Assembly (NCBI GenBank): GCA_049999805.1 | Contig: JBNGIO010005849.1 | Coordinates: 1-43,564, forward strand | From: Folioceros fuciformis | Taxonomy: Eukaryota | Direction: 5' to 3' | Length of the DNA stretch: 43,564 nt | Shown: positions 6,071 to 37,800 of the stretch, one piece after another | Position numbering within the stretch: position 1 is the first letter of the stretch | Layout: each line of letters starts with the position of its first letter | Made by a program: the position numbers and the translations under genes | The notes under the pieces: generated by a model | What the model was told of the DNA's origin: nothing | The model's input: only the letters and a program-made list of their open reading frames with translations | Databases searched by the model: none

Positions 6071-6493
6071 GTATTAACAAATTATTAGGAAAAAAAAGAA
6101 AAGAAAAGAGTCTAGAGGGCATTGCTTATGAGGATTACTACTTTATGACACACATAGGCTCGTTAAGTCGTGTGAATGCCTAGTGTTGATGGTGGCAAAA
6201 GTGATTAGGAGTATGGATTAGAGTTGGAATAATTCTTACCGGTGAATGGCCCATGGTTCAAGTATTCAAGAGGCACGTGGCGACGACGAGAAGAGGAAGA
6301 GGTTGAACAACCAATCACGAAGGCAAACTTGGAGAGTTTGGAGCAAGGAGGCAAGTATGAGGTGTTCACAGGAAGACCCGGAAGTTTGATGTTTGAGACT
6401 TTGAGGACAAGATTATCTTGGAGGCGAGGTGTGGGCTGCTTATAGGAAGCATAAGGCGGAGCTTTGTATGTCTATGGCCTTTCATCTTGAGAT

Positions 6494-13140: not shown

Positions 13141-15161
13141 GCATTCCAATTAGTGGCTGGTTGGGGCAGACAAGTAAAGGAACTCGCTTGTCGCACTTCC
13201 GAAAGCTTCCATGAGTTTCTGTTAGTCCAAGGAGATGGAGATTCCTATCTAAGCTACCAAATTATAGCCCACATTGATTACAAAATATTTGCATACTCCT
13301 TTGATATACCAAATATTCTGAGATTGTTCTCTGCCATGCAAGAAAACTTGTTTATTTGTGCCCAAATGATCTTCTGCTTCAGAGCTTCCTTGTGCGAAAC
13401 GAGGAAACGATGGATTGGATTGTGAGGACAGTTCCAGCCAATCCCGTTCCAGCCACGTTGTGCGGAAGCTAGAGCTACTCCCACCGCCCAAATCCCGTGC
13501 ACATGTGCTCGCCTTGGGTCCCAATTCTGATATCGTTCTTCAGAACAGTGTTTTTGCTGGTTGTTTACTGTATAATGGTTGCCGTCGGAGCGGGAGTGGG
13601 AATGTTATGGCCATGTAGAGCGAGCCCATTCGCAGCTTCCTAATTTGCTGTAAAAAGCGTGACGTTTTCACTCTCCATGGCCGCCCACGATGGCCTTGCC
13701 GGCAACTTCAGAGTCAATATTGTCCCCGCAAGAGAGGCAAGAGGGACATGAGGATTTCCGCAATGGAAAAAAAAGAAAAGAGAAGCACATGGGGAAGCTG
13801 AGTCGAAAGTCGCTTAGAAAGTTCCGGAGAGCACGAGGAAATGCTATCTGTAACTGGTTACAGTATTGGTAGTGGGACACGCGGCCTGCCGGCCTGGCCC
13901 TTGCCCTTGCTTGAAGTGAACAGGAGTGTCCATAGGAGGTTGCGGCACACCATGAACAAAGCAAAGCACCTGGGGGGCAAGTGCAGTGGAGGTCCATGGC
14001 TTGGAATGTTGTTGCTGGACGAGCTGAGCCGAATCTCCGCATCACATGAAGCTGCCGATGATTGCAGGCTGTTAGAGAACCCTGGCACGGTCCCGGACAC
14101 AATGAACCCAAAAGCAAGCTGAGAAAGCACATTAGCAAGTGCGAGAATGCTCACTTGCCTTGTCTCATATCGGGGTCTGCAGGGTGCCCTTGCCGCACTC
14201 ACTGCACTGCGTACAGTACGCCAACATTTGCCAAATAAAGAACGGGAGACCGGCGAGATGCCCTGTGAGAAGAGTGGAGCCCGAGCGCGAGCCTGGATTG
14301 GAGAACAATCTCAGAGCAGGCTGTTGCAACCTCATTTTGCGAAAGAGGCCGGGGAGGAGCATCTGGCGAGTGAGGTGGGGAGTCAGTCACATGTGGGGAA
14401 CTGTGCAGGGCACTGTGCACGCCTGGTGACAAGGTGACGAGGGGGACAGGAACGGTGTGCACGTCTTGAGAGAGCGTGGCAGACGCCAGCACCAAGTACA
14501 CGCAGTGCCGCTGCTAACGAAAGCTCATCCGGATGGGTGGTGATGCCGTCGCCCACCTGTGCCCGGAGAGCAGAATTTGCAGGTGAAATTGCAACATGTG
14601 TACAGTGCTATAGATGGCGTGTCAACCAGAGAGCGACGCTGCAAACCGGGTTGTCAACCCTCGCTACCCTGTCCAAGCCGCAATCCCACAGACACGATGC
14701 CCTGTGCCCGAGTCGTGGATCCCGGAGAATCTGCCTGCTGACGTCTTGCTGCACTATATTAAGGCGCTGCAGAGAGAAGAGGGCGGCGTGTTGCCCAAGC
14801 TTTGCTGCTCGAACCCGCGTATAAAAATGGGCGGGTTGGCACAGCAGGATCTGAGTCCACGGATTCCTGAAGTCTTAGCTTCTTGTCGCCGTGTGCCAAC
14901 AGATTTCTGTTGCAAGGCCTTAGGTGGTATCCGCGCCTGGAGTTGCGAGCGGTGAGACGTCTCGCCAAAGGCTGGCTCTCGAAGAGGTCTCATCGCCGAT
15001 TCGTGGCAGCGCCAGCCCTGGAGCTTGGAGACGCGATTCGCGCATCGATGAGACGCGCGACAGTTTGCCGCTTTCGACAGCCTGGGGCTGTCTGTCTCCT
15101 TGCACTCCATTAGTTGGCTGCCCGCACCAGCATCTACAGGACGGGCCCGAGGGAAGCTGCC

Positions 15162-18100
15162 ATGGACGCGGGCGACGTCGGTGGCAAGGCGGTACAAGAT
15201 CAACGCCAGAGGGACGAGGGTGCGAGGTCTGAAGCGGACAAGGACGACGAGAGCGCGGCAGGTGATCCAGCCATGGCGCCTGCAGCGGCAGCGGCAGCAG
15301 CAGCGCCCGACGCCGGGACGAAAGGGAGGGCGAGCGGGGGCCCGGGGAACAGGACGGCGGTACCCTTCCACCGCCTCTTCCGCTTCGCGGACGCACAGGA
15401 CTGGGGTCTGATGCTGCTGGGCATAGTGGGGGCTATCCTGGACGGCCTCTCCCTCCCTGTGATGCTGCTGGTGATGAGCGGGCTCATCAATTCCTTCGGA
15501 GAGAACTCGCAGGGGGTGAAGTCCGACTTCATGGACGAGATCCGGAAGTACACCAAGGAGTTCACCTACATCGCGGTCGGCACCATGGTGGCCAGCTACT
15601 TGGAGGCGGCCTGCTGGATGCGGACTGCGGAGCGGCAGACGAGCCGGATCCGGCACAAGTACCTTCGCGCCATTCTCCGCCAGGACGTCTCCTTCTTCGA
15701 CCTGGCGGGGACGTCGACGGCGGAGGTGGTGAACTCTGTGGCCGTGGACTCTATGGTGTTCCAGGAGACGCTGGCGGAGAAGATTGCACACTTCGTGATG
15801 AACGTGTCGGGCTTTATAGGGGGCTACGCGGTGGCATTCTTTCTGGCCCCGAAGATGGCAGCGTTCATCCTCGCCTTTTCCCCGCTGCTCATCGCGCCCG
15901 GGGTGCTGTACGGGCGGACCCTGATGCAGCTCTCGCGGAAACTGCAGCAGCAGTCCGTGAAGGCAGGGGCTGTGGCAGAGCAGGCGTTGTCCGCCATCCG
16001 CACCGTGTACGCATTCGTCGGGGAGAAGCGCAGCAGCACCGCCTACAGTGCAGCGTTGGCGGAGACGGTGCAACTCGGAAAGCAGCAGGGCCTCGCCAAG
16101 GGGCTCACCATCGGCTTCAACGCCGTCTCCTACATCATCTGGGCATTCGCCGCCTACTACGGCGCGCGCCTCTCCATCAACGAGGGCGTGAGTGGGGGGA
16201 AGATCGTGGCCACCGGACTGGCCTCCATGGTCGGGGGGCTCGACCTCGGCCTGGCCCTCCCGGATTTACGCTACTTTGCGGAAGCCGCGGCGGCGGCCGC
16301 CACGATGTTCTCCATGATCGACCGCGTCCCCGCCATCGACAGCGATAACCCGGCTGGTACCCAGCTGGAAACGGTGCAGGGCGAGTTGGAGCTGCGGGGG
16401 GTGGAATTTCGCTACCCTGCCCGGCCCGACACAGTCGTGTTCCAAGACATGAATCTCGTCATCCCCGCGGGGCAGACGGTAGCCTTGGTGGGCGGTAGCG
16501 GCAGCGGGAAGTCCACCGTGGTGGCGCTCCTGGAGCGGCTCTATGACCCGGTCGCCGGCGAGGTGCTGCTGGACGGGGTGAACATCAAGAATATCCAGCT
16601 CAAATGGCTGCGGCTGCAGATCGGGCTGGTGAGTCAGGAGCCGGCGCTGTTCGCCACCTCCATCATGCAAAACATCCTTCTGGGGAGAGAGGGCGCCACG
16701 GAGGAGGAGGCCATGGCCGCCGCGCGCGCCGCCAACGCCCACGACTTCATCTCCATGCTCCCCGCTGCCTACGACACTCAGGTCGGGGAGCGCGGAGTCC
16801 AAATGTCCGGCGGGCAGAAGCAGCGCATCGCCATCGCCCGCGCCCTCCTCCGCAAGCCCCCCATCCTCCTGCTGGACGAGGCCACGAGCGCGCTGGACGC
16901 GGAATCGGAGCGGGTGGTGCAGACCGCGCTGGACAGCGCCGCCCTCGGGCGGACCACCGTTGTCGTCGCTCACCGCCTCTCCACCATCCGCCACGCCCAC
17001 AAGATCGCCGTGGTACAGGCCGGGCGGGTGGTGGAAACCGGGGTCCACGACGAACTGGTGAACCGGGAAGGTGGTGCGTACGCCGCCCTGGTCCGCCTCC
17101 AGCACACCCGCGCGTCGCAGAAGGAGCTCCACGACGAGATGGCCAGGGTATCCTCCTCCAGGGTGTCGTCCTCGCATGGCCCGCGCCTGAGCTCGCACCG
17201 CATCTCTAGCGCCCGCGTGTCCAGCGCCAGAGCCCCTGGCACCCTGCCCTTGGAGGAGGTGAAGGCAGCAGGAGTCGCAGCCCCGAAAGCGCCGTCCTTC
17301 AAGCGTCTCCTGGCCCTGAACAAACCGGAGTGGAAGCACGCAGTGCTGGGATGCGGGGGCGCTGCGGTGGCAGGGTTCGTGCAGCCGTTGTACGCTTTCC
17401 TGCTGGGGACGCTGGTGTCCGTGTTCTACTACACGGACAAGGAGCGCGAGAAGCGGACGGTGTCCAAGTTCGCGGGAGCCTTCGCCGCACTCTTTGTGGG
17501 CGCCGTGCTGGTGAACCTGATGCAGCACTACAACCTGCAAGTCATGGGGGAGAAGCTGACGCGGCGGATGCGTGAAATGGTGCTGGAGAAGGTGCTCACG
17601 TTCGAGGTCGGGTGGTTCGACAGGGAGGAGAACAGCTCGGGCGCGGTGTGCGCGCGGCTGAGCAGCGAAGCGAATGTGGTGCGGTCTCTAGTGGGAGACC
17701 GGGTAGCGCTGGTGGTGCAGGTGACGGCGGCGGTGCTCTTCTCGGCGGTGGTGGGGCTGGTGGTGGCCTGGAAGCTGGCCTTGGTAATGATCGCCATGCA
17801 GCCCCTGGTGGTGCTGGCCTACTACGGGAAAAAGGTGGTGCTAGCATCGGAGTCCGGGATGGCGATGCGAGCGCAGCAGGAGTCGAGTGCGCTGGCGAGC
17901 GAGGCCGTGTGCAACCACAGGACTATCACAGCCTTGTGCGCGCAGGACCGGATCGTTAACCTCTTCGACGCCATGCAGGACGGGCTCCGCAAGGAGAGCG
18001 TGGTGAGGGCAAACGTGGCGGGTGTGGGCCTGGGGATGGCGCAGTTCATCCTCTACTCCAGCTGGGCGCTGGATTTCTACTACGGCGGGAAGCTGGTGAA

Positions 18101-19087
18101 GGACGGGGATATATCCTTCCGCGCCATGTTCATCTGCTTCTTCGTGCTGCTGTCCACCGGGAGGATCATCGCGGACGCCGGGAGCATGACCTCGGACCTC
18201 GCCAAGGGCGCGGGGGCGGTGGCCGTGCTCTTCGCCATCCTAGACCGGAAGACGCTCATCGACCCGGACGGCCCGGGAGAGAAGCTGGAAAATGTGACGG
18301 GACACGTGGAAGTGAAGGACGTGGATTTCGCGTACCCGGCCCGGCCGGACATCATCATCTTCCGGAACTTCAGCCTCAAGGTGCGAGCGGGAACCAGCGT
18401 AGCCCTAGTGGGCCAGAGCGGCTCTGGCAAATCCACCATCATCGGCCTTATCGAGAGGTTTTACGATCCGCTGCGGGGCAAGGTGAAGATCGACGGGAAG
18501 GACATCTCCTCGCTGCACCTGCGAACCCTGCGCAGGCACATCGCGCTGGTCGGGCAGGAGCCGACGCTCTTCGCCGGGACCATCCGAGACAACATTTTGN
18601 NNNNNNNNNNNNNNNNNNNNNNNNNNNNNNNNNNNNNNNNNNNNNNNNNNNNNNNNNNNNNNNNNNNNNNNNNNNNNNNNNNNNNNNNNNNNNNNNNNNC
18701 TTCATCTCCGCGCTCGCGCATGGCTACGATACCAACACCGGGGAGCGGGGGCTGCAGCTGTCCGGCGGCCAGAAGCAGAGGATCGCCATCGCGCGGGCCA
18801 TCATCAAGAACCCCGCCATCCTGCTGCTGGACGAGGCCACCAGTGCGCTGGACGCGGTGTCGGAGAAGGTGGTGCAGGACGCGCTGGACAGGGTCATGGT
18901 AGGGAGGACTACCATCGTTGTCGCGCATCGGCTCACTACTATCCAGAACGCCGACTCCATCGCCGTGCTTCAGGACGGGGCCATTTTGGAGCAGGGCCGG
19001 CACCAGGAGCTCTTGAGTAAGGGCGAGTCCGGAGCCTACTTCCAGCTGGTGCAGCTGCAGCAGAGCAAGATGGTGGAGGAGTCGTGA
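15162..19087 (+). CDS. ABCB: Full-size ABC transporter subfamily B (P-glycoprotein/MDR), most like the plant ABCB15-22 clade; apparently intronless; spans a 100-N gap
   Basis: TMD-NBD-TMD-NBD layout. Walker [10 protein letters not shown] and [10 protein letters not shown]-loops VSQEP and VGQEP, signatures [13 protein letters not shown] and [13 protein letters not shown], Walker [12 protein letters not shown] twice, H-loop VAHRL twice. [33 protein letters not shown] resembles the ABCB15 clade. First ATG 15162; after the gap the frame resumes [11 protein letters not shown] and ends at TGA 19085-19087. Confidence 0.95.
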
Positions 19088-23998: not shown

Positions 23999-25741
23999 CC
24001 TGCAGATGGAGACAAGGAAACACCAACCTCAGCTACATAACCCACGCTCTGCGGCAGAAGGGCGGAAACCTGGAAACAGCCCACACCGTTGCGATCTTTG
24101 ACGAGCACATCCTGACAGGGAAGATTCACACACCGGGTGCTGGGATTCACAAGCTCCGTGACGCCATCGCGGACAGCAGCCGGGGAGGAGGTCAACTCCG
24201 ACGACGCCGTCAGGGCTGTGGAAGCTTGTTGGCAGCCACGCTAGCTCCAAGGAAGCGCTGTTCCGAGTTCCGATGGCTGGGCGGAGAGGGGACAGATTTC
24301 CAACAACAGGCGAGCTCCTCTCCAGAGCTCTGAGAATGCTATGCCCAAAAATATAGGTTCACCCGTCAGGTGTGGGGATGTAGCGACTGGTAACTGGCCA
24401 CACAACCCCGTGACTAGTCCTTGGCAGCCACCAAAGCCGAAAGGACAAGGGAAAGGAAACGGAAAAGGAATCGACGACGATACTCCCGCAACCAGCCATA
24501 CGCAGTTCTTGCCAAACGATGGACACAGTGTGGCCCACGAGTCCGCTTTGAAGGAGACAGGAATCACGATTTCCTACTTCATCGGCCAGTTACCCTACCA
24601 CATCCTGTATGTCCTGTACATATATACTTACATACATACATGCATACNNNNNNNNNNNNNNNNNNNNNNNNNNNNNNNNNNNNNNNNNNNNNNNNNNNNN
24701 NNNNNNNNNNNNNNNNNNNNNNNNNNNNNNNNNNNNNNNNNNNNNNNNNNNNNNNNNNNNNNNNNNNNNNNNNNNNNNNNNNNNNNNNNNNNNNNNNNNN
24801 NNNNNNNNNNNNNNNNNNNNNNNNNNNNNNNNNNNNNNNNNNNNNNNNNNNNNNNNNNNNNNNNNNNNNNNNNNNNNNNNNNNNNNNNNNNNNNNNNNNN
24901 NNNNNNNNNNNNNNNNNNNNNNNNNNNNNNNNNNNNNNNNNNNNNNNNNNNNNNNNNNNNNNNNNNNNNNNNNNNNNNNNNNNNNNNNNNNNNNNNNNNN
25001 NNNNNNNNNNNNNNNNNNNNNNNNNNNNNNNNNNNNNNNNNNNNNNNCACTAGACTTGAGAATAACCTTGTTGCTTTAAATCTTCAGAATGGAGTAAATT
25101 TTAAAATCAAATAAATGTCGTGTGGGACAAACAAACAAAGTTCGGTTAAGGTGTTTCTCTCCAGATTGCAGCTGCCAGCAATGTAGCAGCCCTCAAGCCA
25201 TGAACATCAGTTGATCTACACATACACATGATCAGCAGCACACAATGTGCTGAGCACAGAAGGAAGCAAGCAAAAATGTGAATCTCCTACGCGACATAAA
25301 ACCAGCTCATACATGGTTTCTTAGACGTTGTAGGAATGCCACGATTGATGGGCTGCCGTTGATGGGCAACCTAGAGTAGTGTAAGTCACGTCGGAGCTGC
25401 CAATGAACATAGAAAATCCACAAGCTTTACAACACTCCTGCCCCAAATCGGGTTGGAAATTACAAACTCAAAGCAAGCAAAATCCTTGGTGCGAGGTCAG
25501 GCACTCTCCCTTGGTGCAATTTAGATGACTGCCTTCTACGGCACCCTTTCTAGGGTTTAGCGCTAGCCGCTATGGCTTATGTCAACGACGATTTCAAGTA
25601 TCAGCGGCGATCATGTCACCGTTGGGCTCACACTCTTGGTGTGAGCCCACAAGCAATTCTAAGTGTAATATGAAGCTATATAATTAGTGATAGTGAAGGT
25701 GAGTCCCTATCCTTTCTTTTTGCCCTCTTTAGGGTTTTTTT

Positions 25742-25876
25742 TAAAGGAATACGTGTGTTGGATAGATTATTAGAGTTCAGTAGCTTAGTTAAGCCAAAAG
25801 CTTCATAACATGCCTTTTCATTAGGGTTATGTCGTTTGATTAGGTCAAGATGTTTCATATGTGACTTAAGTTATTT
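25742..25876 (+). repeat. Left LTR-like direct repeat of copia element 2
   Basis: taaaggaatacgtgtgttggatag...gtgacttaagttattt aligns without gaps to 33116-33250 with 10 substitutions by my count. Confidence 0.85.
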
Positions 25877-25877
25877 C

Positions 25878-26530
25878 CCCTTCTTTCAGACTCATCCATC
25901 CCTAGGTCTTCTCGAGCTCGTATTCGATCTTGTTTAAGTAAAGGAGTGGGCTCTTGGCTTTTAGCTCGACCTTGCATCCAGGCGTTTCGAATCGCACCAG
26001 CAACTTTCGCCACCACCATGAGATTTTGCTTAGGTTTGGCCCACCCCTTGGCTTTTTCTCTCTCTACATGCAGTTGTGGGGTTGCCACTGTCGGTACAGG
26101 GTCCTATTTGGCACGTTGTCTCATTGGGGGGCACCGCATTACTACTCATGATGCAGTTCGAGATGTGATGTTCTCAATGGCTAGGGAGTGTGGGTTTCTT
26201 CCGTATAGGGAGCGTCCATATACTTTGCGCAATGGAGTTTCACTTAGAGCCGACCTTTTCTTCACTAGGGGAGAACAGGTTTGTGTTGCTGATGTGGTTG
26301 TTACGGATCCCACTAGGGATTCAATTTGTGATCACATCATCATCAACCCCCATGGTTGGGCAGCAAAGGGTTGTGCAAGTGCCAAAGTCTATAAGTATTC
26401 TCCCTTGCAACACGGGCATACTTTCATCCCCCTTGCTCTTGAGACTCATGGAGCTATGGGCAAGGACTTTTCAAGGTTTATCAAGGAGTGCGCCAAGGTT
26501 TATCAGAGCAATAGGAATGGTGTAGTAGGA
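25878..26530 (+). mobile_element. 3' fragment of a non-LTR retrotransposon with zinc knuckle and restriction-like endonuclease (CRE/R2-group-like)
   Basis: GVGSWLLARP, MRFCLGL, CSCG..YLARC (CCHC-like), THDAVRD (RHD motif), LRADL..VCVADVVVTDP (PD..D core), AKVYKY, FIPLALETHGAMG. This motif order is typical of RLE-type element C-termini. Confidence 0.8.
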
Positions 26531-26911
26531 TGCAAGTTGTGTTGTAATGAATGCACATTTAAAAATGTATTTGAAAGAATACATTTATATTATTTTTTTG
26601 TTTGTTTTGATTTAGAAATAAAGTTTCTTGATCAAGAAACAAGAAATATAAAGAACATATTGTTGTGTTGATTGTTTATATAAATGCACTTATAGTTTCT
26701 ATTAGATTAAGGGAGTGATCCCGATGCATCCCCTCTGATTTGCTACTTCAGCAAAATGAGCAGGAATGCCCTACGATAACTACCTAATCTATAGTTAGAT
26801 TATTAGTGGCATCTATATAGAAATTAGAATGTTTAAAAGAAAATTCTAACAACACAAAAATCTAGCCTGATGAATGGCCGATCGAGTGGATGGCTGGCCT
26901 TGCCTTGCTGA

Positions 26912-27433
26912 ACGGATTCAATATCAAAATCGTCACAGGGGCCAGAAGTCATTGCGCAAACATCATGGAATGTTGTAGCAGAACAACTTTCACAAAGAAA
27001 CCACAATCAGAGAGGTTTTCTAATAACTCATGTTTCCCAATCACCTACTATTGACCAATTGATAAACAGGATCGAGGCACATCAACAAGTTGACAAACGT
27101 TTTGACACTATCTCACATAGAATAATTGCAGTGACTGTTGATCTGCATGATTTGATCGAAAAGATAGATCATTTGGACTTTAAGTTGCTAACCTTATTTA
27201 AGCCTACTCCACTTGCTAATCCTGCATTCAGAGGAGTAGCTTGTAAGCACGCTAAGAAAACAAGTAGAGCTCACACATTTAACAGTCCAAATTCGTGCCT
27301 CTCTTGTACAACGTATGCGTACAATATGTGGGAGATTAGAAACCAGAAAATTGGGAACATTGCACAACATCAGGGGTTAGTAAACACACCAGTAGACAAC
27401 AGGTTGCCTAACCTTGCTGCTAACATTCTCTGA
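26912..27433 (+). other. Extra open frame (173 codons, no upstream ATG) immediately before gag of copia element 2
   Basis: Stop-free from 26912 to TGA 27431-27433. Heptad-like stretch FDTISHRIIAVTVDLHDLIEKIDHLDFKL, followed by C-K-H and C-L-S-C. Confidence 0.4.
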
Positions 27434-27546
27434 CTTTGCTTCTGAAGTGGTATGTGCCTGAGGTCCTAGAGAACAGACCAACAAGGTTAGTCATTTTAGC
27501 ATCTTAGTATTTTGGGAGTAGCTAACCCAAGGTTCAAAAGAGGAAA

Positions 27547-30500
27547 ATGGCTGATCCCTCATCTAACTATGGTGAGGAAGGGTTTAGGGAAAAGGACAGA
27601 TTTGATCGGTATGATTACGACATATGGATAATCAAAATGCGTGGAGCTTTACAAAACAAAAAAGCTTCAGAAGATAGCTATGGGCGATGGAGATTTCCCA
27701 GCAACTTCCACCACACCCACCACTGCTAAAAAGATGAAACAGGACGAATGGGTGGCTAAGGATGAAGCTGCCATGTTCCTGATCCGAAGTGGTTTAACCT
27801 CAGATATGCTGAGGCAGACATCCGGATGTAAAACCTCAGCTGAAATCTAGACACAACTTCAGAACCTATACTTAGGCAGCAACACAACAAGTCAGTTGAC
27901 AGCCTTGCGAAATTTGCAAAATTGCAAGATGAGAGATGTAGAATCAGTAGAGAAGCACCTCGGTCATTTCAAGACACTTGTCTCCAAATTGGAGAGTGCC
28001 TCTAATAAGAGTGTCAAGGAAGACATGCTAACCTTGTACTTCTTACTATCTCTCCCAGAATCATGGTCACATTTCATGACATCTTTTAATGCTTCACATC
28101 TTCAGACCTCAAAATTGGCAAAGGCTGCGAATGTTACACTTCCAGAAACCACCTTTATAGAGTTAGTGGGATGGGATCATTGCTCTAAGAAGAAGCAACA
28201 AAGGGTTCCAGTAGACGTTCTGGAAAACAGCAAGCCCTCTACACATCCAATAAGGGACGTGGAGGAGGAAAACCCTACAACAGAGGTGGAGGCAGTTCAT
28301 CTAGAGGTGGTGGCTCACAAGGACAAGGAGCCAGCCAAAGGAAACCAAAAAGGACAGGAAGCTGCAATTGGTATAAGTTATCTGGTCACTAGGAACATGA
28401 GTGTAGAAAGAAGCAAGTTGGTGTTCCTCGCAAGGAGGGTTCATCTGTTGCTAAAACTCACGTGGTTATGAAGAAACAACCTATCCCTTCAGCCCTCACA
28501 GTAGGTACACGAGTTTTTGCAAGTTCATACTTGCTTCCTACTTGCCTATCAACAAAATTAGAGGTTAGACCAGTTGTGGACTAGTACTTAGATACAGGTG
28601 CTACAGCCCACATTTGTTTCGACAAAGGATCTTTTCAAACATATTAGTCATTTAAGGATCAATATCTTTACCTAGGTGATGACAAATCCCTAGTGTCCCT
28701 TGGTTGTGGCACAATAGTCTTATCAGTTCCGTCAGGTGTAGTACTAACTCTACATGACGTTTATTACATGCCAGGCATGACTAGAAATTTAATTTCAATC
28801 AGAAAGTTGAATGCTGACAATAATTGTTACATGCTATTCACGAGAACAGAATGTCAATTGCTGGATGCATTTGATCATAGAGAGATACTTGCCTATGGTT
28901 ATGAAGACCATGATTGGTTTCGTCTTCATATTAATAGTGGTGTCCCAACTTCTCACTTCACTCGAGACGTCACCACTATGTCTGCACAACAAATTGACAA
29001 ATCTAAGTTGTGGCATACAAGGTTAGGTCACCCTCACATAGCAAAACTACAGAGGTTGTTTAGCGGATTGTAAGCTCATCAGGATTGTAAACCTGCAAGC
29101 TCTGATACCATTTAGCGGATTGTAAGGTCATCAGGATTGTAAACCTCCAAGCTCTGATACCATTTAGCGGATTGTGTGTGTGCTGATGCATGGGCACGGG
29201 AACGAGAGAGCGCAAGGGGCAAGCAAGCAAAAAAAACGGTTATATTTCATTTCACAAGAAAGTATATATATATAACTAGGTATTTAATTAAGTATATAAC
29301 CTGATTACAAAACTAACCTACTTACTAACATGATTTCCTTTAGGTTGGCTGTTAGTGACTTTTACCAAGATGGATTAATTGGAACATTGGCTCCACTTTC
29401 ACTTTGTGAATCTTGTGTTCTTTCCAAGGGACAGCAAGCTGCTTTTAAGAATAAAGCACCTCACAGGGCTACAGAGGTTTTAGAACTTGCTTCATACATA
29501 TCTGTGTGGCCCACTCTCACAGGAGTCTATAGGTGGTGGGAGATACTTCCTTACTTTTACAGATGACGAAAGCAGGTTTGTCACCACCTACATCCTGAAG
29601 CAGAAAAGTGAGTGTTTTAGACATTTCAGAGATTACCTCAAGTATGCTGAAAGGTGGATTGGAAAGCAACTTAAAACCTTGAGATCAGATAATGGGGGAG
29701 AGTTTACCTCAAATGAATTTCAGGCTTTTTGTGGGCTGAAGGCATTGGTCGACAACAATAGTTGTCTATACTCCTCAACAAAATGAAGTCGCTGAGCGTC
29801 TTAACCTAACTTTGCGGGAGATGACATCTTCCTTGCTACATCATGCTCAGCTTCCCTTGTCATATTAGGCAGAAGCCATTGTGACTTCAACATATCTCAA
29901 AAACCGGTTACCCACAACTTCTATTGTTGACCAAACCCCTTATGAGGCTTTCACAGGTCGCAAACCATCAGTTCAACACTTGCGAACTTTTGGTTGCGTG
30001 GCTTAAGCCTTCATACCTAAGGAGAAGAGGAAAAAGTTGTCTGATAAGGCTAAAAAACTTCTCATGTTAGGCTACACATAAGGAATCAAAGCCTACAAGC
30101 TTTATGATGTCCGTAAGAACAAGATTGTGTATGCTAGAAGTGTTACTTTTGATGACAATCGCACCTGGGCATCAGTGGAATATGTTGAGGATCATGTTCT
30201 CAACGATAATGAAGACTCAACAGGTTTTGTTGATTCACATTTTGATCAAATAGATCACGGAACTCAACCCATTCAACATGAGAACGTTGTTACTACAGGT
30301 GGGGAAGACATAGCAGATTTTGAGTTTGTAGACACTAACGAGGCAGGTGTAGTTGAACCCGAAACCATACCTACACCTGAAGATCCAAATCAGCCAGTCT
30401 TACATGAACAACATCCTTCTGTTGTTGCAGAAGAACAAAATGCTCAAGCAGTACTGGAATTGGATGATGATCCTAGTTCCACCCAGCCTATACAAGAACC

Positions 30501-31981
30501 TCAGCCTGTAGAACCATCTAGACAATATCCATCTCGTCATAGGCAACCTCCAGATTATTACCGTGCATCCGATTTTAGAGTCACTTCCTCACATGTGGAA
30601 GTTAATGCTACAATGTCCCTGGATCATGTCGAACCACAATCCTATCAAGAAGCATTGCGTAGACCTGACCACATCGAGTGGGAGAAAGCTATTCAATCAA
30701 AATATGACTCCTTAATCGAAAACGGCACATGGGAGCTTGCAGAATTGCCACCAGGCAGAAAGTTGGTTTCTTGCAAATGGGTCTTTAAGTTGAAAGTAAA
30801 GGCAGATGGTACCTTTGATAGGTACAAGGTTCGCTTGGTCGCAAGGGGTTTCTCTCAAGTCCCTGGACTGGACTATCTTGATACTTTCGCTCCATTCGTC
30901 AAGCTTGCCACCCTCAGAACAATTCTTGCTATATCCACACACTATAATTATGAGCTGCAAATGTATGACGTCAAAACAGCATTTCTACAGGGGAAATTGG
31001 ACACAGAGATATACATGCAGCAACCTCTAGGATATGAGGTAAAAAGAAAAGAGAATCATGCTTGCCGGCTAATTAAATGCTTGTATGGCTTGAAGCAATC
31101 AGCTATGAAATGGAACGCAGCTTTAGATACAAAGTTGTTGGAGTTAGGCTTCACCAAGAGCAAGGCGGATAGCAGTCTGTATGTTTACATAAAGGGAGAC
31201 GTGATATGCTACCTTGTAGTTTATGTGGACGACCTGATCCTCTCCAGCAATAGCCAAGTCTTTATAACAAGTATTACAGATATGCTAGCCACAAAATTCA
31301 AGATGTCTAGCCTAGGCCCCTTACAGAGCTGCCTAGGTATTCATATTCAAAGAAACAGGTAGACTCATGTAATGACACTATCTCAGCCACGTTACCTTAT
31401 GGATAGTGCTGAGTAGTTAGGCCTTAAGGATGCAAAGCCCGCTTCTACCCCTCTGACCACATGACTTAAGCTCAGTCGGAGTATGTCTCCCTCTCCACAA
31501 GTAGAAAAGGATCAAATGTCAAAGATACCTTACAAAAATGGAGTAGGTAAGTTGATATATGCATCGAATACAACAAGGCTAGAGGTGGCTTATGCAACGA
31601 GTGCTTTATCACAGTTCTTGGAAAATCCGGGTCCAGAACATTGGGCCAGTCTGAAATGTGTCTTTAGGTACTTGAAAGGGACACCAACTTTGGGGATCTC
31701 CTACAGACAAAAGATTGGACAAACCCTAGACATAGAAGTCTACACAATGCTGAAGGTACATACTCGAGTGCTATAGACCTTTTGAACCATAGCACTCGAG
31801 TATGTATCCTTTTGACACTCGAGTACCTTTTAGCGCTCGAGTATGTATCATAACACAAAGCAACCCAGCAGACATTCTCACAAAGGCACTTAGCAGAGAT
31901 GCTCACCAAAGACATGTCCAATGCTTAGGGATGGGAGAGTCAGCAGCTCTCTTATCCAGAAGCAACAGCAGTTCGATATAA
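27547..31981 (+). pseudogene. Copia gag-pol of element 2 with multiple stops and frameshifts; most of RNase H deleted
   Basis: Gag DYDIWIIKMRGAL, LLSLPESW; knuckle CNWYKLSGH*EHEC; protease YLDTGATAH; LWHTRLGHP..CESC; LRSDNGGEF; RT YKVRLVARGFSQ, YDVKTAFL, VYVDDL (31219-31236); RNase H remnant NPADILTKAL at 31862; stop TAA 31979-31981. Confidence 0.95.
29059..29342 (-). mobile_element. Nested solo-LTR-like insertion with two tRNA-iMet PBS copies and a 5-bp TSD (ggttg)
   Basis: ggttg at 29054-29058 and 29343-29347. Removing the insert restores HPHIAKLQRL-AVSDFY...LCESC. gctctgatacca (reverse complement of TGGTATCAGAGC) lies at 29099-29110 and 29151-29162. Confidence 0.88.
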
Positions 31982-31992
31982 TGCCCTAAGGC

Positions 31993-32830
31993 CTAAAAAC
32001 ACGAGTCAAAGCTACTATGGTCAGAGGAGTAGCCAAAGTCTACTGACTCTCTAGAACGCGGAGACTCGGGTTCGGACTCCTCCTCTTCTTCGTAGGAGTC
32101 ATGGCCATAACTACTAACAAGGGAAAAACTTTCATATGATCTTGGAGAGTTGCGGCGACAACGTTCTTCATAAGAAACATGTTTCTCATACTCGAGATCA
32201 GCTTCTTCCTTGAGTCTTATATTAGACCCTGTACAAAAGAAGTGGGAGCAAGCGTAAGATATTACCACAAGACAGAATAACAGGATCAACCAGAACATGA
32301 AAGGTTCACAGATGCTTACTATATGGGCTCACGATGTAACAAGGATAGGTTCTACAGATGTGCACGCCAACTCTTTTCATGGTGATCTCTGTGCAGCCTA
32401 GCCACACCTTGTACCATACAGGTGAGCGAGGGTGCTTCATAGTCCCACAACTGACAATTCTTGTCTCACGATCTGTGCCAGTAGGTTTAGGGAACACAAT
32501 AGGTAAAGCAGAACGAGACTCATCATTATAGTAGGCAAAATTGGGTAGTTTCAGTGTCGCAGCCGCCGTCTTTGCCTTGGGCGCAGGTGGGGCAGAAGGG
32601 CAACCCATGTCCCAGTTTGCCTTGAACACAATAGCCTCAATGGTCTTGCACTGCTCCAGGAACTCCTTAGTGGTACCCTTGGGCCTCTGTACTCCCCGCT
32701 TAACACCTTTTGCAGCAGTCGGTGTCGAAGCTCCAAGAGTGGTAGTTGTCTTAGCAGCAAACCTGCCCTTGGAATCTTGTATCTAGTGGCACTTAGGACT
32801 AGGCTCATAGTTGCAATCTGAGGAAGCCAT
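31993..32830 (-). pseudogene. Antisense extra ORF between pol and the 3' LTR of copia element 2
   Basis: caccATGGCT at 32830 gives MASSDCNYEPSPKCH*IQDSKGRFAAKTT..., in frame with ORF 32306-32629. It continues past TGA as TFHVLVDPVILSCGN, then shifts frame to an acidic, Ser-rich tail ending at 31993. Confidence 0.65.
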
Positions 32831-32879
32831 GGTGATGAGAAGGAAAGAGATCCTGTGTTGTAGTAGCTCGGAGAGTGAG

Positions 32880-32915
32880 AGTGAAATGAAATGAAAAAAA
32901 GCCAGCGTTATATAA
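32880..32915 (-). promoter_or_regulatory. Putative core promoter of the antisense ORF
   Basis: TATATAA (32914-32908), followed on the minus strand by pyrimidine-rich ttcatttcactctcactctc and an ATG about 80 nt downstream. Confidence 0.55.
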
Positions 32916-33115
32916 GGGACGCGCACCTCATCTCTACCAACTTCACACTAGCGCATATCATCTTGATCAGAATTGACAAGAATGCGAGAGCGAAACCGAG
33001 TACAGGAGATGTTGGCTATGAAGCTTGAAATTGAAGGCACAGTTGAACCACAGTCTCACGAGTAGCCTCCAGCAGATTGAAGACTGTACAAGAAATCATT
33101 ACCAACAAGTGGGAG

Positions 33116-33250
33116 TAAAGGAATACGTGTGTTGGATAGATGATTAGGGATCAAAAGTTTAGTTAAGCCAAAAGCTTCATAACGTGCCTTTTCATTAGGG
33201 TTACGTCATTTGATTAGGTCACGATGTTTCATATGTGACTTAAGTTATTT
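33116..33250 (+). repeat. Right (3') LTR-like direct repeat of copia element 2
   Basis: Directly follows PPT aagtgggag (33107-33115), the same 9-mer as the PPT of element 1. Confidence 0.85.
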
Positions 33251-34827
33251 TCATGACACATATACATACGAATGTATTCTTGACATAATGTAATTATCTT
33301 ATATGTTTAATTGATTTGTATCTACCTAAATTTGTTAGTTTTCTTAAGTCTTGGGATAGAAAGACCTTTCCATCCTTTTTCCAAAATGAAGGCTCCATTT
33401 TATTAACCAAGGGCATCCTTCCCTTAAACAACCTTATCGAACTACTTTCCTTTTAGGGACCTACTTCTAAATATTGAGTTATTTCTTAAAGCATATGGTT
33501 TCCCTTATTTACATCCATGAGTACTAACATCCCACTATTGGGAGGAGAAAGGTCTATTGTTGATGCCAACTCTCTTATTAAACTATATTCCTTGCTAAAA
33601 AAATAGACTAATATACGAGTATAAATACTCGTAGATAATGTATGAATGAACTAATATAGAATAAATCTATTAAATATGAAATATTATGAGCAAGAAGTAA
33701 AGCTTTCCTCACGGAAGATGAGTAGGTGCATAGTAATTATCAGAGTAGTGTAGGAGTCCATGTCTTTCGAAACGGCGTTCCTAAGTTCTTGCCAGACAAA
33801 CAGTACTTACTTGTGCGGGATGCAAATGCGGAGCGGATCTACCTTAAGAATATGAGATACCATGCGTAAGAAGTGAAGCTTTCGTAACTGAAGGTGAGTA
33901 GGTGCATGTTAGTTACCCCCGGTTATAGGTTGCGTACAGAAAGCCACGCGTTACTTCCGAGCGTGCTAAGCGGGATAAACCCCAAGGTGTTTAAACCGGG
34001 CCAGAGAGTCTATTTAGAGTATCCGCCCCCGTCAGCAAAACCATCTTGGATCCTACGCACAGCACCGCACGACTCCAACTTAGCAGCTGACCTTGAGACC
34101 AGATTGCTTTGTTCCTGACCGCTTCGCCCTGCCTGTGATACAATCAAGACCTGGTATACCGTGTTGTCGAGCTCGCACCCCTTGCTGAGCTCACCCCGCC
34201 ATCCTGTCCTTCGCGTTCCCGCCATTTTTATCCTTTCGGCTCGCAGGCAGCACTTGGCGGGGCCGCCCGCCCATCCTCACCCGACCTGCCCGATCCCTAG
34301 GTTGCACAGCAGCGAGCAGGTACAATGCCGCTACGTCGGCTCGTCTGGTCGCCGTGCACGGTCCAGCGGCTGCCCGATCCGATCCGCACTTGGGACTGCC
34401 CTTTCTTTTCCTTGTTATTTTTGCTCACCACTGGTCGGTCCCGTTCCCATCAGAGCTTGGTTTGTGTGTTTGATTTGTGTGTTTGTGTGTGTGTCACGGA
34501 ATCACAGGTTGGAGATCTTGCCGAAGAGCACGAGCTTGAGTCGGGGTAGCTCAGCATTTGGTCCTCGAAGCTGACGGGTAACGCGGTGTGGATAGGGGAT
34601 TCATGTTCTTGGAAAGATCGGTGAAATCGTGCGCTCGTGTGAGCGGGTTGGGAGGGAGCTCATGTTTTTGGCAGTGGCATTATGCTTCGCAGGGTGTGGT
34701 TGTCGGGAGCGCGGTGCGCCGGCGTCGTTTGAGGTCGGCGGGATCGGAATTGTAGAATTTTGCACCGGAGTAGCCTGGAGTCAGGAGGTAATCGACGAGA
34801 GGGGATGTATGAGGCGGGAGAGATTGG

Positions 34828-37800
34828 ATGCATTCCTTGTGCTGCATGTCCTCTGTCCAGCTGGAGACGAGGCCACCTTCTAGGGTGAGAGCATCTGAAA
34901 CGCATCATAGGATGTCCCTTGCTGTAGAAAGTAATGCTGCACCAGCTAAGGTTCAGAAGGCTGGGCCGCCTGTGAAACTTTCGCCTGCTGCTGCGATTTC
35001 GCCTCCTCAGATCAGCAACCAACACCAAACGCATCATTCCATGGCAGAGCTAAACCTCGACAGTGACGACGGCAAGTCTCCGTTGGGGACCAGCTCCCGG
35101 CCGAAGCCTGTAGACACATCCACAGGCCTCAAAATCAGCGGGGTGCCTGGGGAGGTCCTTGACACGGCGGATGCTAGATTAGTGCCCAGCTCTGGGACAA
35201 ATGTGGCAGGAATCCTGTACAAGTGGGTCAACTATGGCAAGGGCTGGAAGCGCCGTTGGTTTGTGTTGCAAGAGGGCGTTCTCGGGTACTACAAGGTACA
35301 TGGCCCGGACAAGGTGTCCGTGAACCATGAGAGACACAAAGGCCTGCGATTGATCGGTGATGAGGCACAGCGGCTGATGAAGAAGCAGAAGCAGGGTCAC
35401 GTAGATGAAAAGCGCCCCATGAAAGCATTTGGGGAGGTGCATTTGAAGGTGCGTTTCTGGGACTGTTAAAGGTATCGATGGTCTCCCTTTTTTGCACCAT
35501 GCCCTCTCAAGTCCCTCTTCTTTCTTCCAGTCATTTTTCTGATACCATCTCACGCAACAGTGTGTCTGCCCAGGTATCTTCTCTGCGCGAAAGTAAATCC
35601 GATGACAAAAAGTTTTATATTTATTCTGGGACAAAGACACTTCACCTGAGAGCAGAAACTAAAGAAGATCGAAGTGCTTGGATGGATGCTCTGCATTCGG
35701 CTAAAGACTTATTTTCGCCCTCATCAGCTATTTTTGCTATGCCCCCACACGACGAGGTTGTTATTTCTACAGACAAGCTTAGGGCTCGTTTACTTGAAGA
35801 GGGACTGAGTGAAGACGTGGTTAAGGATTGTGAGAAAATCATGTTGAACGAGTTTTCGGCGGTTGACGACCTCTTGAAAGTGCTACAGGCCAATCGTTTT
35901 GTTCTGACTGAAAGGGTGCGGCAGTTGGAGGTAAGAGTCTGAGACTTGTGCTATCTCATCGTTGACATCAACTTACAGCTTTTTGGAAGTTCAAGGGCAC
36001 GTGACTGCAACTATAGACAGCTGACAGGGTTTTCCATCTATACAGGCTGAGAAAGTGGAGCTTGAAACAACTGTGGTGGATGAAATGCAAAATCAAGCTT
36101 ACGAGGCCCAGAATGCTAGGGTCCCTGGTCTTGGTAAATGCCAAGGTAGGTGAGCCTGGACACCCATTTTCTTCACTGAAAGTTTGCAGCTCATATTAGG
36201 AGATCCAGTTTGAATTTGTGGTCCATTAGTTGTTGTGTAAGTAAGCTGCATCTCCTCCCTTGTAATGTACGAGCTGAATAGTTGATTATTGTGCTAGGTA
36301 CAAGTGAGACAGAATCTGATGATGAGAATGAGAAAGCTGGAATTGCTGATGCCGAGACAGATGAAGATGACGATGTCTTCTTCGATACTAGGGAATCTTT
36401 GGTCTCGGATTCTTTCCGTGGGTCTTCGGCTACCCTGCGCTCCGTATCATCTGAGTGGGGCGGGGAAGGTTCAGATGGTCTATACTCTCCGGGTCCAAAG
36501 GGTCGGGAAGTTGGTATGGACCTTGTTGGCTTTGACTACCCTGCCGTGAGAAGGAGAACTAAACTTCCTGACCCGAAAGAGAAAGAGAAGGGTGTTAGTT
36601 TATGGTCCATGATCAAAGATAACATTGGGAAGGACCTTACAAAAGTCTGTCTCCCTGTTTACTTCAATGAGCCTCTGTCATCATTGCAAAGGTGCTTTGA
36701 AGATTTGGAGTATTCTTTCTTGCTTGACAGAGCTTACGAATGGGGAAAAAGGGTAAGCAGCCTTGGTTCTCGTTTGAGGAAGTGGTCTTTTAGGGTGAAC
36801 TGGTCTGACAAGGTCAAGGAGAAGGCAGCTTACCTTTGTAGGAACTAAGTTTGTAGGTCTGTAGAAAATCCACAATTTTTTGTCTAATACTTTGATTCTA
36901 CAAAAAGTCCACAATTATCTGTCTAATATGATTCTTGTATTTACCTTGTGCCATGGAGTGACAGGGAAACGGTCTTCTAAGGATTTTGAATGTAGCAGCT
37001 TTTGCTGTATCTGGATATGCATCCACCGAAGCGCGGACTTGCAAACCATTTAACCCTCTTCTGGGTGAAACATACGAGGCAAGCTATCAAGATAAAGGGC
37101 TTCGGTTTTTTTCTGAGAAGGTGAATCCTGGCCGCTCCAAATGCAGGTCTAGCTGCAGGATTGTCTCATGTTCAACCTTGGTAAGTGCAAACTGGTGCCA
37201 CACTTGTCTTGGCTGACGTGAGCTGTTCCTTCACCCAGGTCAGTCATCATCCGATGGTAGTTGCATGTCACTGTGAGGGTCGAGGATGGAAGTTCTGGGG
37301 AGACAGTACTCTGAAGAGCAAATTTTGGGGTCGATCGATTCAATTGGACCCAGTTGGCACACTCACTCTTGAATTTAGTGACGGTGAAGTTTTTCAGTGG
37401 AGCAAGGTGCGAAGGATTGTTCTTCGTCGTGCACTACCCATAGTCTTGGTTGATGTTCTGTGGAGTGTAATGAACTGTAGGTGTAAAACCGATGCTGGCC
37501 ATTGTTGACAGGTCACAACATCAATATACAACCTCATACTGGGGAAACTTTACTGTGACCATTACGGTACTATGCGGATTCAAGGGAATAGAGACTACTC
37601 CTGTAAGCTGAAGTTCAAGGAGCAGTCGCTCATAGATCGCAATCCCCATCAGGTACACCCTCAACTGTTTCTGAGGCGATTATTGCAAGCCCACCCTGAT
37701 GCGTGGGAGACTGCGTTTTCCTGCGTTATAATCATCCGGTGGCATGCCTTGTGAACCAGGTGCAAGGGTATGTTCATGATAAAACCGGAGAGAGAGCTGC

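What the first reader, a model, noticed from the sequence alone, without database searches (positions are those of the whole stretch)
31993..32915. Antisense gene with its own promoter, tail-to-tail with copia pol
Seen: TATA, pyrimidine-rich leader, good ATG context and about 280 codons. It has a basic N-terminus (PKCH*IQDSKGRF, KGVKRGVQRPK), a Cys/His-containing middle (CRTYPC...DPVILSCGN...CSHFFC, loosely RING-like) and an acidic Ser-rich tail. Its stop is 11 bp from the pol stop. The two internal stops (TAG, TGA) fit CAG and CGA deamination. Inference: a once-functional retroelement accessory protein, perhaps nuclear, for anti-silencing or targeting. The RING resemblance is weak.
Basis: partly seen in the sequence, partly recalled or inferred. 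Interest (0 to 1): 0.7.

Follow-up and report, generated by a model that had tools for sequence, protein, structure and literature searches.

The report
Dead spliced antisense gene behind copia pol
Behind the polymerase gene of a decayed copia-type jumping gene, apparently in a liverwort, lies a small two-exon gene on the opposite strand that matches no known protein, is itself broken, and looks like one more example of the poorly understood "extra" antisense genes some plant retrotransposons carry.

Summary
The sequence features are real, but the gene model needs correcting. On the minus strand there is a TATATAA (32914-32908), a 75-nt pyrimidine-rich leader, an ATG in good context (32830) and a stop (31995-31993) 11 nt from the copia pol stop (31979-31981). 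It is not one 280-codon frame. Two frames (158 and 111 codons) are joined by the only frame-compatible GT..AG intron (32319-32229, 91 nt, T-rich). This gives 248 codons with a single defect, TAG at codon 16. The TGA "stop" and most of the "RING-like" cysteines are intronic or out of frame, and the exons contain no CxxC. The protein is an orphan: no match in Pfam, PDB sequences, a word-indexed search of 5.8 billion proteins, or 1.84 billion cluster representatives. DNA contigs from the same organism carry diverged copies (87-95 % alike) of the ORF, its promoter and the adjoining 135-bp repeat, so the region is repeated, not unique. Two things are not shown: that those copies also sit behind a copia pol, and that their frame is conserved. 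The LTRs were not found and no RNA data exist. Best reading (about 0.5): a decayed copy of an element-borne antisense extra ORF, a known kind. Interest is modest.

The parts
32908..32914 (-). TATA box (TATATAA), 78 nt upstream of the ATG
   Evidence: Direct reading. Two of the sister contigs are 2 letters shorter here (table 4: 32908 and 32910 left out).
32831..32905 (-). Putative 5' leader of 75 nt, 73 % pyrimidine, with no upstream ATG
   Evidence: The transcription start was not mapped.
32320..32830 (-). Exon 1 coding part (ATG 32830-32828; ends in phase 1). It holds the basic, T/A/K-rich front and a Cys/His-containing middle.
32783..32785 (-). In-frame TAG at codon 16, the only defect in the spliced reading frame
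32229..32319 (-). Predicted intron of 91 nt: GTAAGC donor, pyrimidine tract plus CAG acceptor, 43 % T, GC 0.41. It contains the TGA 'stop' and the 'SCGN...CSHFFC' stretch.
   Evidence: By my reading, the interval has only one other AG (right after the donor), and the alternative GTGAGC donor at 32332 is out of phase. Splicing was not observed.
31993..32228 (-). Exon 2 coding part (acidic, Ser-rich tail; 77 full codons) plus the stop TAG at 31995-31993
31982..31992 (.). 11-nt spacer between the two converging stop codons
27547..31981 (+). Degraded Ty1/copia gag-pol in the order gag, protease barrel, pre-integrase, integrase core, RVT_2. Most of RNase H is missing. The natural C-terminus and the TAA stop at 31979-31981 are present. 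There are about ten frame changes or in-frame stops.
   Evidence: Pfam hits; translations.
33116..33250 (+). 135-bp direct repeat, 93 % identical to 25742-25876 and 7374 bp from it. A purine-rich 17-mer (33107-33123, 15 of 17 purines) runs into its start. It may be the start of a 3' LTR; this is not shown.
   Evidence: Sister contigs run from the ORF's 5' end through this repeat (records 7, 8, 15, 16).
25742..25876 (+). The second copy of the 135-bp repeat, upstream of the copia. Its flanks on both sides are unlike those of the other copy.

Best explanation
This is a decayed copy of an extra, antisense protein-coding gene carried in the 3' part of a Ty1/copia retrotransposon family of a liverwort-like plant.

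Proposed working form (inferred). The gene has its own TATA promoter facing the pol gene. Its transcript has one 91-nt intron, and the spliced message encodes about 248 residues: a basic, probably disordered front, a Cys/His-containing beta-rich middle, and an acidic Ser-rich tail. The intron is a GT..AG intron only on the antisense strand. It therefore cannot be spliced out of the sense-strand genomic RNA and is copied faithfully at each retrotransposition, which is why an element-borne gene can keep it.

No AATAAA-like hexamer from a small set I searched follows the stop for 390 nt, and the stop is 11 nt from the pol stop. The antisense transcript would therefore have to end inside the pol coding region and be complementary to the 3' end of the element's own RNA.

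Most likely role (inference by analogy only): a regulator of the element's own expression or replication, acting through the protein, through the antisense RNA overlap, or both. In this copy the gene is dead (TAG at codon 16), as is the adjoining gag-pol.
For: - Anatomy (shown): TATATAA, a pyrimidine-rich leader without uATG, and caccATGG, with that ATG in the same frame as the 158-codon ORF.
- Open frames: a frame of at least 158 codons arose in 12 of 2000 shuffles.
- Intron: a second 111-codon ORF on the same strand is joined by the only frame-compatible GT..AG pair, and the interval is T-rich (0.43, against 0.24 and 0.29 in the exons).
- Packing: the two genes end naturally and converge to within 11 nt. 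The pol C-terminus still has its usual end motif. That fits a compact designed arrangement better than two random truncations.
- Repeated in the genome: contigs of runs X1-X3 (one sample of the same organism) align at 87-95 % over 32060-33238. In X2, two different contigs cover exon 1 (records 13 and 14). In X1, three contigs differ from the window at 32936-33012. Contigs run from the ORF's 5' end through the promoter into the 135-bp repeat and on to at least 33300.
- Gaps: contigs over the coding part show 0-1 gaps (records 4, 5, 6, 13, 14). Those over the upstream non-coding part show 3-9 gaps in four of five contigs (records 7, 8, 15, 16) and 0 in the fifth (record 24, run X3), at similar divergence.
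- Equal decay: about ten disruptions in 4.4 kb of gag-pol against one in 744 nt here.
- CpG depletion is like the transposons in the window: 0.50, against 0.38-0.54 for the copias and 0.78 for the host stretch.
- The kind is documented. Antisense extra ORFs between pol and the 3' LTR, with their own promoter and no database similarity, are described for Grande, RIRE2, Retand and PvRetro13 (passages of PMC7264820). [quoted passage not shown]
Against: - No LTR pair brackets the unit. The only direct repeat is 135 bp, with unlike flanks on both sides and no target-site duplication. It is therefore not shown that the ORF lies inside the element.
- None of the contigs listed bridges the pol stop and the ORF stop, so linkage in sister copies is not shown.
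- One sister sequence (records 6 and 13) has one extra letter inside exon 1, which would shift its frame.
- The protein has no relative anywhere. The 3 hits among 1.84 billion representatives are tandem-repeat artefacts.
- The ESM recognition score is low: 1534, where 91 in 100 known-family proteins reach 2300.
- The single-sequence AlphaFold model is unconfident (pLDDT 31.6).
- After allowing for the size of the window, the 158-codon frame alone is not rare.
- GC3 does not discriminate: 0.38-0.49 here, 0.33-0.54 for transposon ORFs, 0.43-0.84 for host ORF pieces.
- The other copia in the window (618-4460) has nothing similar behind its pol.
Confidence: 0.5

Rival explanations
1. It is an unrelated repeated sequence, either part of another transposable element or a member of a lineage-specific multi-copy gene family. 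It merely abuts a 3'-truncated copia. The gene-like structure is real but has nothing to do with the copia.
For: - No 3' LTR matching the region upstream of gag lies behind the ORF.
- The neighbourhood is a patchwork of transposon pieces: a second copia, gypsy-like integrase fragments, an unrelated 268-codon ORF and an assembly gap.
- Sister contigs link the ORF to the 135-bp repeat and beyond. No listed contig links it to pol.
- The 135-bp bin has a higher summed depth than its neighbours (178 against 50 and 90 in X1). The tool warns that summed depth is not a copy number.
Against: - Both ORFs end at natural stops only 11 nt apart, which would need two precise coincidental breakpoints.
- CpG depletion and decay match the copia.
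- There is no similarity to any transposon protein family in Pfam.
Confidence: 0.22
2. There is no protein-coding gene. The open frames are chance features of the non-coding stretch between pol and the 3' end of the element. That stretch may still hold an antisense promoter that makes a regulatory RNA.
For: - It is an orphan with no relative in any search.
- The fold model has low confidence.
- An in-frame stop at codon 16 and a frameshifted sister copy.
- Several overlapping open frames on both strands show the region is generally poor in stops.
- About 0.3 chance ORFs of this length are expected in a window of this size (my extrapolation).
- Non-coding antisense transcripts of retrotransposons are documented (micropia; passage of PMC7264820).
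Against: - Several features coincide: two long ORFs on one strand, one frame-compatible canonical T-rich intron, and an in-frame ATG with A at -3 and G at +4 behind a TATA box.
- Sister contigs show fewer gaps over the ORF than over most of the upstream region.
Confidence: 0.2
3. It is an ordinary single-copy host gene or pseudogene next to which the copia happened to insert.
For: It has a promoter and an intron like a host gene. Host genes lie 2 kb away.
Against: - Several diverged copies exist in the same organism's DNA.
- There is no relative among the annotated liverwort proteomes that answered for the neighbouring ORP gene at 62-69 % identity.
- CpG depletion is transposon-like.
Confidence: 0.04

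Closest known systems
Antisense additional ORFs between pol and the 3' LTR (aORF-3R / eORF-3'R) of plant LTR retrotransposons: maize Grande gene23, rice RIRE2, Silene Retand, Phaseolus PvRetro13
   Same: The position (just behind pol) and the orientation (antisense) match. The promoter is its own, as shown for Grande gene23. The proteins have no clear database similarity. Basic patches suggest a nuclear role, and nuclear localisation is reported for the Grande protein (passages of PMC7264820).
   Different: The examples whose superfamily I could check are Ty3/gypsy (Retand lineage, PMC11963269), whereas this neighbour is Ty1/copia, apparently in a liverwort. The ORF is shorter (248 codons), is split by an intron, and sits 11 nt from pol rather than in a POL-3'LTR region of several kilobases. 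No sequence similarity was found. Membership is unproven because the 3' LTR was not found.
Retand antisense ORFs with the Transposase_28 domain (PF04195)
   Same: An antisense ORF behind pol, proposed to bind DNA and regulate the element (PMC11963269, abstract and passages).
   Different: There is no PF04195 hit, even at E up to 10. That domain is reported only from flowering plants.
Extra ORFs of Ty1/copia elements catalogued in REXdb (Neumann et al. 2019)
   Same: Extra ORFs occur in Ty1/copia: 582 elements in 45 mutually unrelated groups, mostly without known domains, taken as independent acquisitions (PMC6317226, passages).
   Different: That survey counted only uninterrupted ORFs of at least 250 codons, so a spliced 158+111-codon gene would have been missed. 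The one copia type stressed in the passages I read is the sense-strand eORF of SIRE. Per-lineage tables are in supplements that I could not open.
HTLV-1 HBZ, a retroviral antisense gene
   Same: An antisense gene at the 3' end of a retroelement, with its own promoter, encoding a nuclear regulator (as cited in PMC11963269 and PMC7264820). That HBZ has a spliced form is my recollection.
   Different: It is an animal retrovirus. Its promoter lies in the 3' LTR and its product is a bZIP protein. No bZIP or any other domain is detectable here. The comparison is an analogy only.

Membership tests
Antisense extra ORF between pol and 3' LTR (aORF-3R / eORF-3'R) | The ORF lies downstream of pol on the opposite strand | tested here: met
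   pol stop at 31979-31981 (+); ORF 32830 to 31993 (-).
Antisense extra ORF between pol and 3' LTR (aORF-3R / eORF-3'R) | The ORF lies inside the element, that is, upstream of the 3' LTR | tested here: inconclusive
   The only repeat found is a 135-bp direct pair (25742-25876 and 33116-33250, 93 %) that brackets gag-pol and the ORF. A purine-rich tract lies at the 3' copy. The flanks are unlike and there is no target-site duplication.
Antisense extra ORF between pol and 3' LTR (aORF-3R / eORF-3'R) | Present in all or most copies of the retrotransposon family | tested here: inconclusive
   The ORF region is repeated at 87-95 % in the same organism. No listed contig bridges pol and the ORF, and no whole genome is held.
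Antisense extra ORF between pol and 3' LTR (aORF-3R / eORF-3'R) | Operational REXdb criterion: an uninterrupted ORF of at least 250 codons | tested here: not met
   The longest uninterrupted frame is 158 codons; the spliced frame has 248 codons with one stop. This is a survey threshold, not a biological definition.
Antisense extra ORF between pol and 3' LTR (aORF-3R / eORF-3'R) | Antisense transcription from its own promoter | not testable with these tools
   Only a TATA box and a leader are seen. No RNA run holds the stretch.
Transposase_28 (PF04195) antisense proteins of Retand | A match to PF04195 | tested here: not met
   0 Pfam families for either exon at E up to 10.
RING finger (C3HC4 zinc finger) | Eight Cys/His ligands with paired C-x2-C motifs in the RING spacing, and a Pfam zf-RING type hit | tested here: not met
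There are 0 CxxC motifs in the spliced translation. No Pfam hit. The RING spacing itself is recalled.
Ty1/copia LTR retrotransposon (the neighbour) | gag, then protease, integrase and reverse transcriptase in that order (integrase before RT) | tested here: met
   Retrotran_gag_2, Pol_BBD, gag_pre-integrs, rve and RVT_2 occur in this order on the + strand.
Ty1/copia LTR retrotransposon (the neighbour) | Two LTRs, a primer-binding site and a polypurine tract | tested here: inconclusive
   No LTR pair. The canonical tRNA-iMet PBS motif (recalled) is absent upstream of gag. Bryophyte copias are reported to use a half-tRNA-Met PBS (PMC6317226), which I did not test.

The most novel reading that the evidence does not exclude
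A liverwort Ty1/copia family carries a conserved, intron-containing antisense gene for a protein with no relatives anywhere. The gene is packed 11 nt from pol, so its mRNA must overlap the element's own 3' end. The intron survives retrotransposition because it is invisible on the genomic RNA. The protein (basic front, Cys/His middle, acidic phosphorylatable tail) would be a new retrotransposon accessory factor that tunes the element's expression or silencing. That would be an independently evolved analogue, in an early-diverging land plant, of retroviral antisense genes.
Probability: 0.25. Interest if true: 0.55.

Novelty: new member of a known kind. Interest (0 to 1): 0.3.

Why it matters
Antisense extra ORFs of plant retrotransposons are common, but their function is unknown. 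The examples in the passages I read whose superfamily I could confirm come from flowering-plant Ty3/gypsy elements.

A spliced antisense gene in a bryophyte copia would widen the taxonomic and structural range of the phenomenon. It would also show that surveys which demand long uninterrupted ORFs miss split ones. Finally, it would give a compact case, with converging stops 11 nt apart, in which protein function and antisense-RNA function could be separated experimentally.

This particular copy is dead and its family context is unproven, so its immediate value is as a pointer to look for intact copies.

Tried and rejected

- No whole genome is held for the window.
These are the per-lineage eORF tables, which might show whether bryophyte copias with reverse eORFs were already recorded.

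**Homology searches that found nothing usable**
- Word-indexed search of 5.8 billion proteins: 0 of 51 candidates.
- HMMER over 1.84 billion representatives: 3 hits, all tandem-repeat proteins with 15, 10 and 4 weak stretches. In pairwise blastp the single stretches score E 0.015-0.97. Rejected as artefacts.
- Pfam at E up to 10: 0 families.
- PDB sequences at E up to 10: 0 matches.
- ESM Atlas: no usable hit.
- tblastn of both exons against the window: only themselves.

**Searches for related loci**
- Metagenome contigs: 144 pattern matches, 0 confirmed.
- A degenerate pattern for one Trp-rich peptide of the window: 0 matches.
- Viral contigs: 7 and 9 pattern matches, 0 confirmed.

**Structure**
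- The single-sequence AlphaFold2 model of exon 1 has pLDDT 31.6, with 0 of 154 residues at 70 or more. It was too poor for a fold search, so none was run.

**RNA**
- No RNA holder is listed for the stretch.
- The one run guessed to be RNA (X4) laid 4 contigs, all on conserved gag-pol parts at under 95 % likeness.
- This says nothing about expression.

**Other scans**
- Rfam: 0 matches in 25100-34000. tRNA genes: 0.
- The bacterial promoter and terminator scan is irrelevant for a plant.
- LTR search by self-blastn down to word size 7 found only the 135-bp pair.
- GC3 as a host-versus-transposon discriminator was dropped, because the host ORF pieces overlap the range.
- Summed contig depth was not used as a copy number, as the tool warns.

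Full report
**What is at the coordinates**

- TATATAA at 32914-32908.
- A 75-nt leader that is 73 % pyrimidine and has no ATG.
- ATG at 32830 in the context caccATGG.
- A stop TAG at 31995-31993.

On the plus strand the copia pol frame ends with its usual C-terminal motif and TAA at 31979-31981. Exactly 11 nt separate the two converging stops.

The neighbour is a Ty1/copia. Retrotran_gag_2, Pol_BBD, gag_pre-integrs, rve and RVT_2 follow each other on the plus strand from 27547. It is badly decayed, with about six frame changes and at least four in-frame stops, and most of RNase H is missing.

**The gene model has to be changed**

Translated in one frame from the ATG, the sequence meets TAG at codon 16 and TGA at codon 175, and then runs into a dense series of stops.

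Between them lies a GTAAGC at 32319. A pyrimidine tract ending in CAG ends at 32229.
- Removing these 91 nt joins the frames exactly (phase 1, A|GG).
- The result is 744 coding nt, or 248 codons, whose only defect is the TAG at 32785-32783.
- By my reading, the interval has only one other AG (directly after the donor), and the nearby GTGAGC donor at 32332 is out of phase. This is therefore the only canonical frame-compatible intron.
- The interval is 43 % T, against 24 % and 29 % in the flanking exons, as plant introns tend to be.

The TGA and the 'DPVILSCGN...CSHFFC' residues are therefore intronic. The spliced translation has no C-x2-C at all, so the RING idea fails.

**Is it more than chance?**

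An open frame of at least 158 codons appeared in 12 of 2000 dinucleotide-preserving shuffles of the 923 bp. One of at least 111 codons appeared in 219 of 2000.

Scaled to a 43.6-kb window, the first figure alone would not be remarkable. The weight comes from the conjunction of features:
- two long frames on one strand;
- one compatible, well-formed intron;
- an ATG in the same frame with A at -3 and G at +4;
- a TATA box 78 nt upstream.

I put the probability that this was once a real gene at about three in four. This is a judgement, not a computed figure.

**What the protein is**

Nothing known.
- Neither exon matches a Pfam family, even at E up to 10, or a PDB sequence.
- The word-indexed search of 5.8 billion proteins scored 0 of 51 candidates.
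- The exhaustive HMMER pass over 1,835,955,588 representatives gave 3 proteins at E up to 0.001. All three are translated tandem repeats hit in 15, 10 and 4 weak stretches. In pairwise comparison the single stretches are insignificant.
- The ESM Atlas gave no usable neighbour and a low recognition score of 1534.
- A single-sequence AlphaFold2 model was unconfident (pLDDT 31.6).

In composition:
- The front of exon 1 is basic (pI 9.8) and rich in T, A, K and P.
- The middle holds Cys and His in C-x4-H and C-x4-C arrangements.
- The last 77 residues are acidic (20 D+E) with 18 Ser.
- The 'KGVKRGVQRPK' patch is basic but, by my recollection of the consensus, is not a textbook nuclear localisation signal.

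**Where the window comes from, broadly**

The PH-domain and oxysterol-binding gene 2 kb away finds its best named relatives in liverworts (Marchantia, Riccia, Calypogeia) at 62-69 % identity. In that search 275 proteins scored E up to 1e-5 among 542 candidates.

The organism is therefore liverwort-like, and its own proteome is not in the protein collections. The absence of homologues thus excludes relatives in annotated liverwort proteomes, but it does not exclude paralogues in this genome.

**Sister copies**

No genome is held. Two DNA runs of the same organism (one sample) hold the stretch, with 0.81 and 0.51 of its sampled words. Laying the contigs of four runs on 27400-33400 at 80 % likeness placed 687, 612, 314 and 4 contigs. 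Most are under 95 % alike, so they come from other copies.

Over the antisense gene the listed pieces are:

| Record | Range | Likeness | Gaps |
|---|---|---|---|
| 4 | 32060-32325 | 91 % | 0 |
| 5 | 32213-32499 | 87 % | 0 |
| 6 | 32403-32719 | 89 % | 1 |
| 13 | 32303-32745 | 89 % | 1 |
| 14 | 32303-32609 | 95 % | 0 |

Upstream of the gene:
- Records 7, 8, 15 and 16 run from 32735-32870 to 33182-33238 at about 90 %, with 3-9 gaps.
- Record 24 (run X3, 32870-33088) has no gap.
- Indel rows show that sister contigs continue to at least 33300.

This leads to four points:
1. The region is repeated and diverged, so it is not a fragment unique to this copy.
2. The ORF, its promoter and the 135-bp repeat travel together.
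3. Gaps are scarcer over the ORF than over most of the upstream part. This is a weak hint of coding constraint.
4. One sister sequence carries one extra letter inside exon 1, so at least one other copy looks frameshifted.

Two things were not obtained. No listed contig bridges the pol stop and the ORF stop. The letters of the sisters at the TAG were among the 1524 rows not shown. All of these runs are one sample and may be the source of the assembly. That does not matter for within-genome copies, but it is not independent confirmation.

**Is it inside the copia?**

This is unresolved.
- Self-comparison down to 7-base words finds no LTR pair.
- The only direct repeat is 135 bp (25742-25876 and 33116-33250, 93 %), 7374 bp apart. 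It brackets gag-pol and the antisense gene.
- A purine-rich 17-mer runs into the 3' copy, as a polypurine tract would.
- However, the sequences on both sides of the two copies are unlike, and there is no target-site duplication.
- The canonical tRNA-iMet primer-binding motif (recalled) is absent upstream of gag. Bryophyte copias are reported to use a half-tRNA-Met site instead (PMC6317226, passage), which I did not test.

In favour of belonging together:
- the 11-nt packing of two natural ends;
- a similar CpG depletion (0.50, against 0.38 for the copia and 0.78 for the host stretch);
- a similar degree of decay.

**How it most likely works**

Shown: the anatomy.

Inferred:
- A TATA-driven antisense transcript is spliced once and encodes a 248-residue protein.
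- An intron on the antisense strand reads CT..AC on the element's genomic RNA and cannot be removed from it. It is therefore inherited through reverse transcription. This makes an intron compatible with, and mildly diagnostic of, an antisense cargo gene.
- No AATAAA-type hexamer from the small set I searched follows the stop for 390 nt. The transcript should therefore end within pol and overlap the element's RNA.
- By analogy with the documented antisense ORFs (own promoter and nuclear protein in Grande; the dsRNA idea discussed in PMC7264820), the likeliest role is self-regulation of the element by the protein, the RNA overlap, or both.

This copy is inactive.

**Comparison with what is known**

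- Antisense extra ORFs between pol and the 3' LTR are an established, functionally unexplained kind (PMC7264820, passages).
- In the Retand lineage, 97 % of clusters carry a Transposase_28 domain (PMC11963269, abstract and passages). That domain is absent here.
- In Ty1/copia, extra ORFs of at least 250 uninterrupted codons were found in 582 elements of 45 unrelated groups (PMC6317226, passage). A split ORF like this one would have escaped that screen.
- My two literature searches (listings only, apart from the three papers above) showed no report of an antisense ORF in a liverwort copia. That is a narrow search and no proof of absence. The supplements that list eORFs per lineage could not be opened.

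**Verdict**

The RING and TGA-deamination details are rejected, and membership in the element is unproven.

It is best filed as a probable new member of a known kind. It is dead in this copy and of modest interest, unless intact, pol-linked copies with a conserved frame turn up in the full genome.

Noticed in passing
window 15114-18902 (+): An uninterrupted 1262-codon ORF encodes a full ABC transporter with two ABC_membrane and two ABC_tran domains. It lies in a stretch of about 65 % GC (GC3 0.84) among DNA of 41-47 % GC. An intronless, GC-rich gene of this size is unusual for a plant locus. It could be a retrogene, a horizontal acquisition or an assembly chimera.
   Followed up: partly
window 618-4460 (+): A second, much better preserved Ty1/copia of a different family. 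Its four consecutive ORFs are separated only by in-frame stops, and RVT_2 is complete. Only short stretches are 71-73 % alike to the first copia. Nothing resembling the antisense ORF lies behind its pol.
   Followed up: partly
window 25865-26671 (+): A 268-codon open frame starts at the edge of the upstream 135-bp repeat. It has no Pfam family and one unnamed relative (42 % identity over 60 % of the query). By recollection only, its Cys/His and acidic motifs resemble the restriction-like endonuclease end of some non-LTR retrotransposons.
   Followed up: partly
window 26912-27433 (+): A 173-codon open frame lies on the sense strand just upstream of the copia gag, behind a TATATAAA at about 26680. 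It has no Pfam match. It may be a 5' extra ORF or chance.
   Followed up: no
window 29059-29162: Two tandem 52-nt units sit inside the copia integrase region. Each ends in the exact reverse complement of the canonical tRNA-iMet primer-binding motif (a recalled motif). Sister contigs show joints that skip about 29038-29530.
   Followed up: no
window 31745-31880: A cluster of short repeats containing ACTCGAG sits where most of the RNase H domain should be. Sister contigs show joints at 31349-31862 and 31745-31784.
   Followed up: no
window 6400-7100 (+): Short open frames look by eye like Ty3/gypsy integrase and chromodomain remnants. This rests on recalled motifs and was not scanned.
   Followed up: no
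window about 24650-25050: An assembly gap (510 N in the window) lies about 700 bp upstream of the first 135-bp repeat. It limits what can be said about the left boundary of the transposon cluster.
   Followed up: no
run X3 laid on window 27400-33400: The differences in this run are dominated by C>T (362) and G>A (157), unlike the other runs of the same sample. A bisulfite-converted library would look like this. If it is one, it could report methylation over the element.
   Followed up: no
window 35041-36848 (+): A host gene for a PH-domain oxysterol-binding-protein-related protein lies here. Its best named relatives are in liverworts at 62-69 % identity. The transposon cluster ends about 1 kb upstream of its start.
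   Followed up: partly
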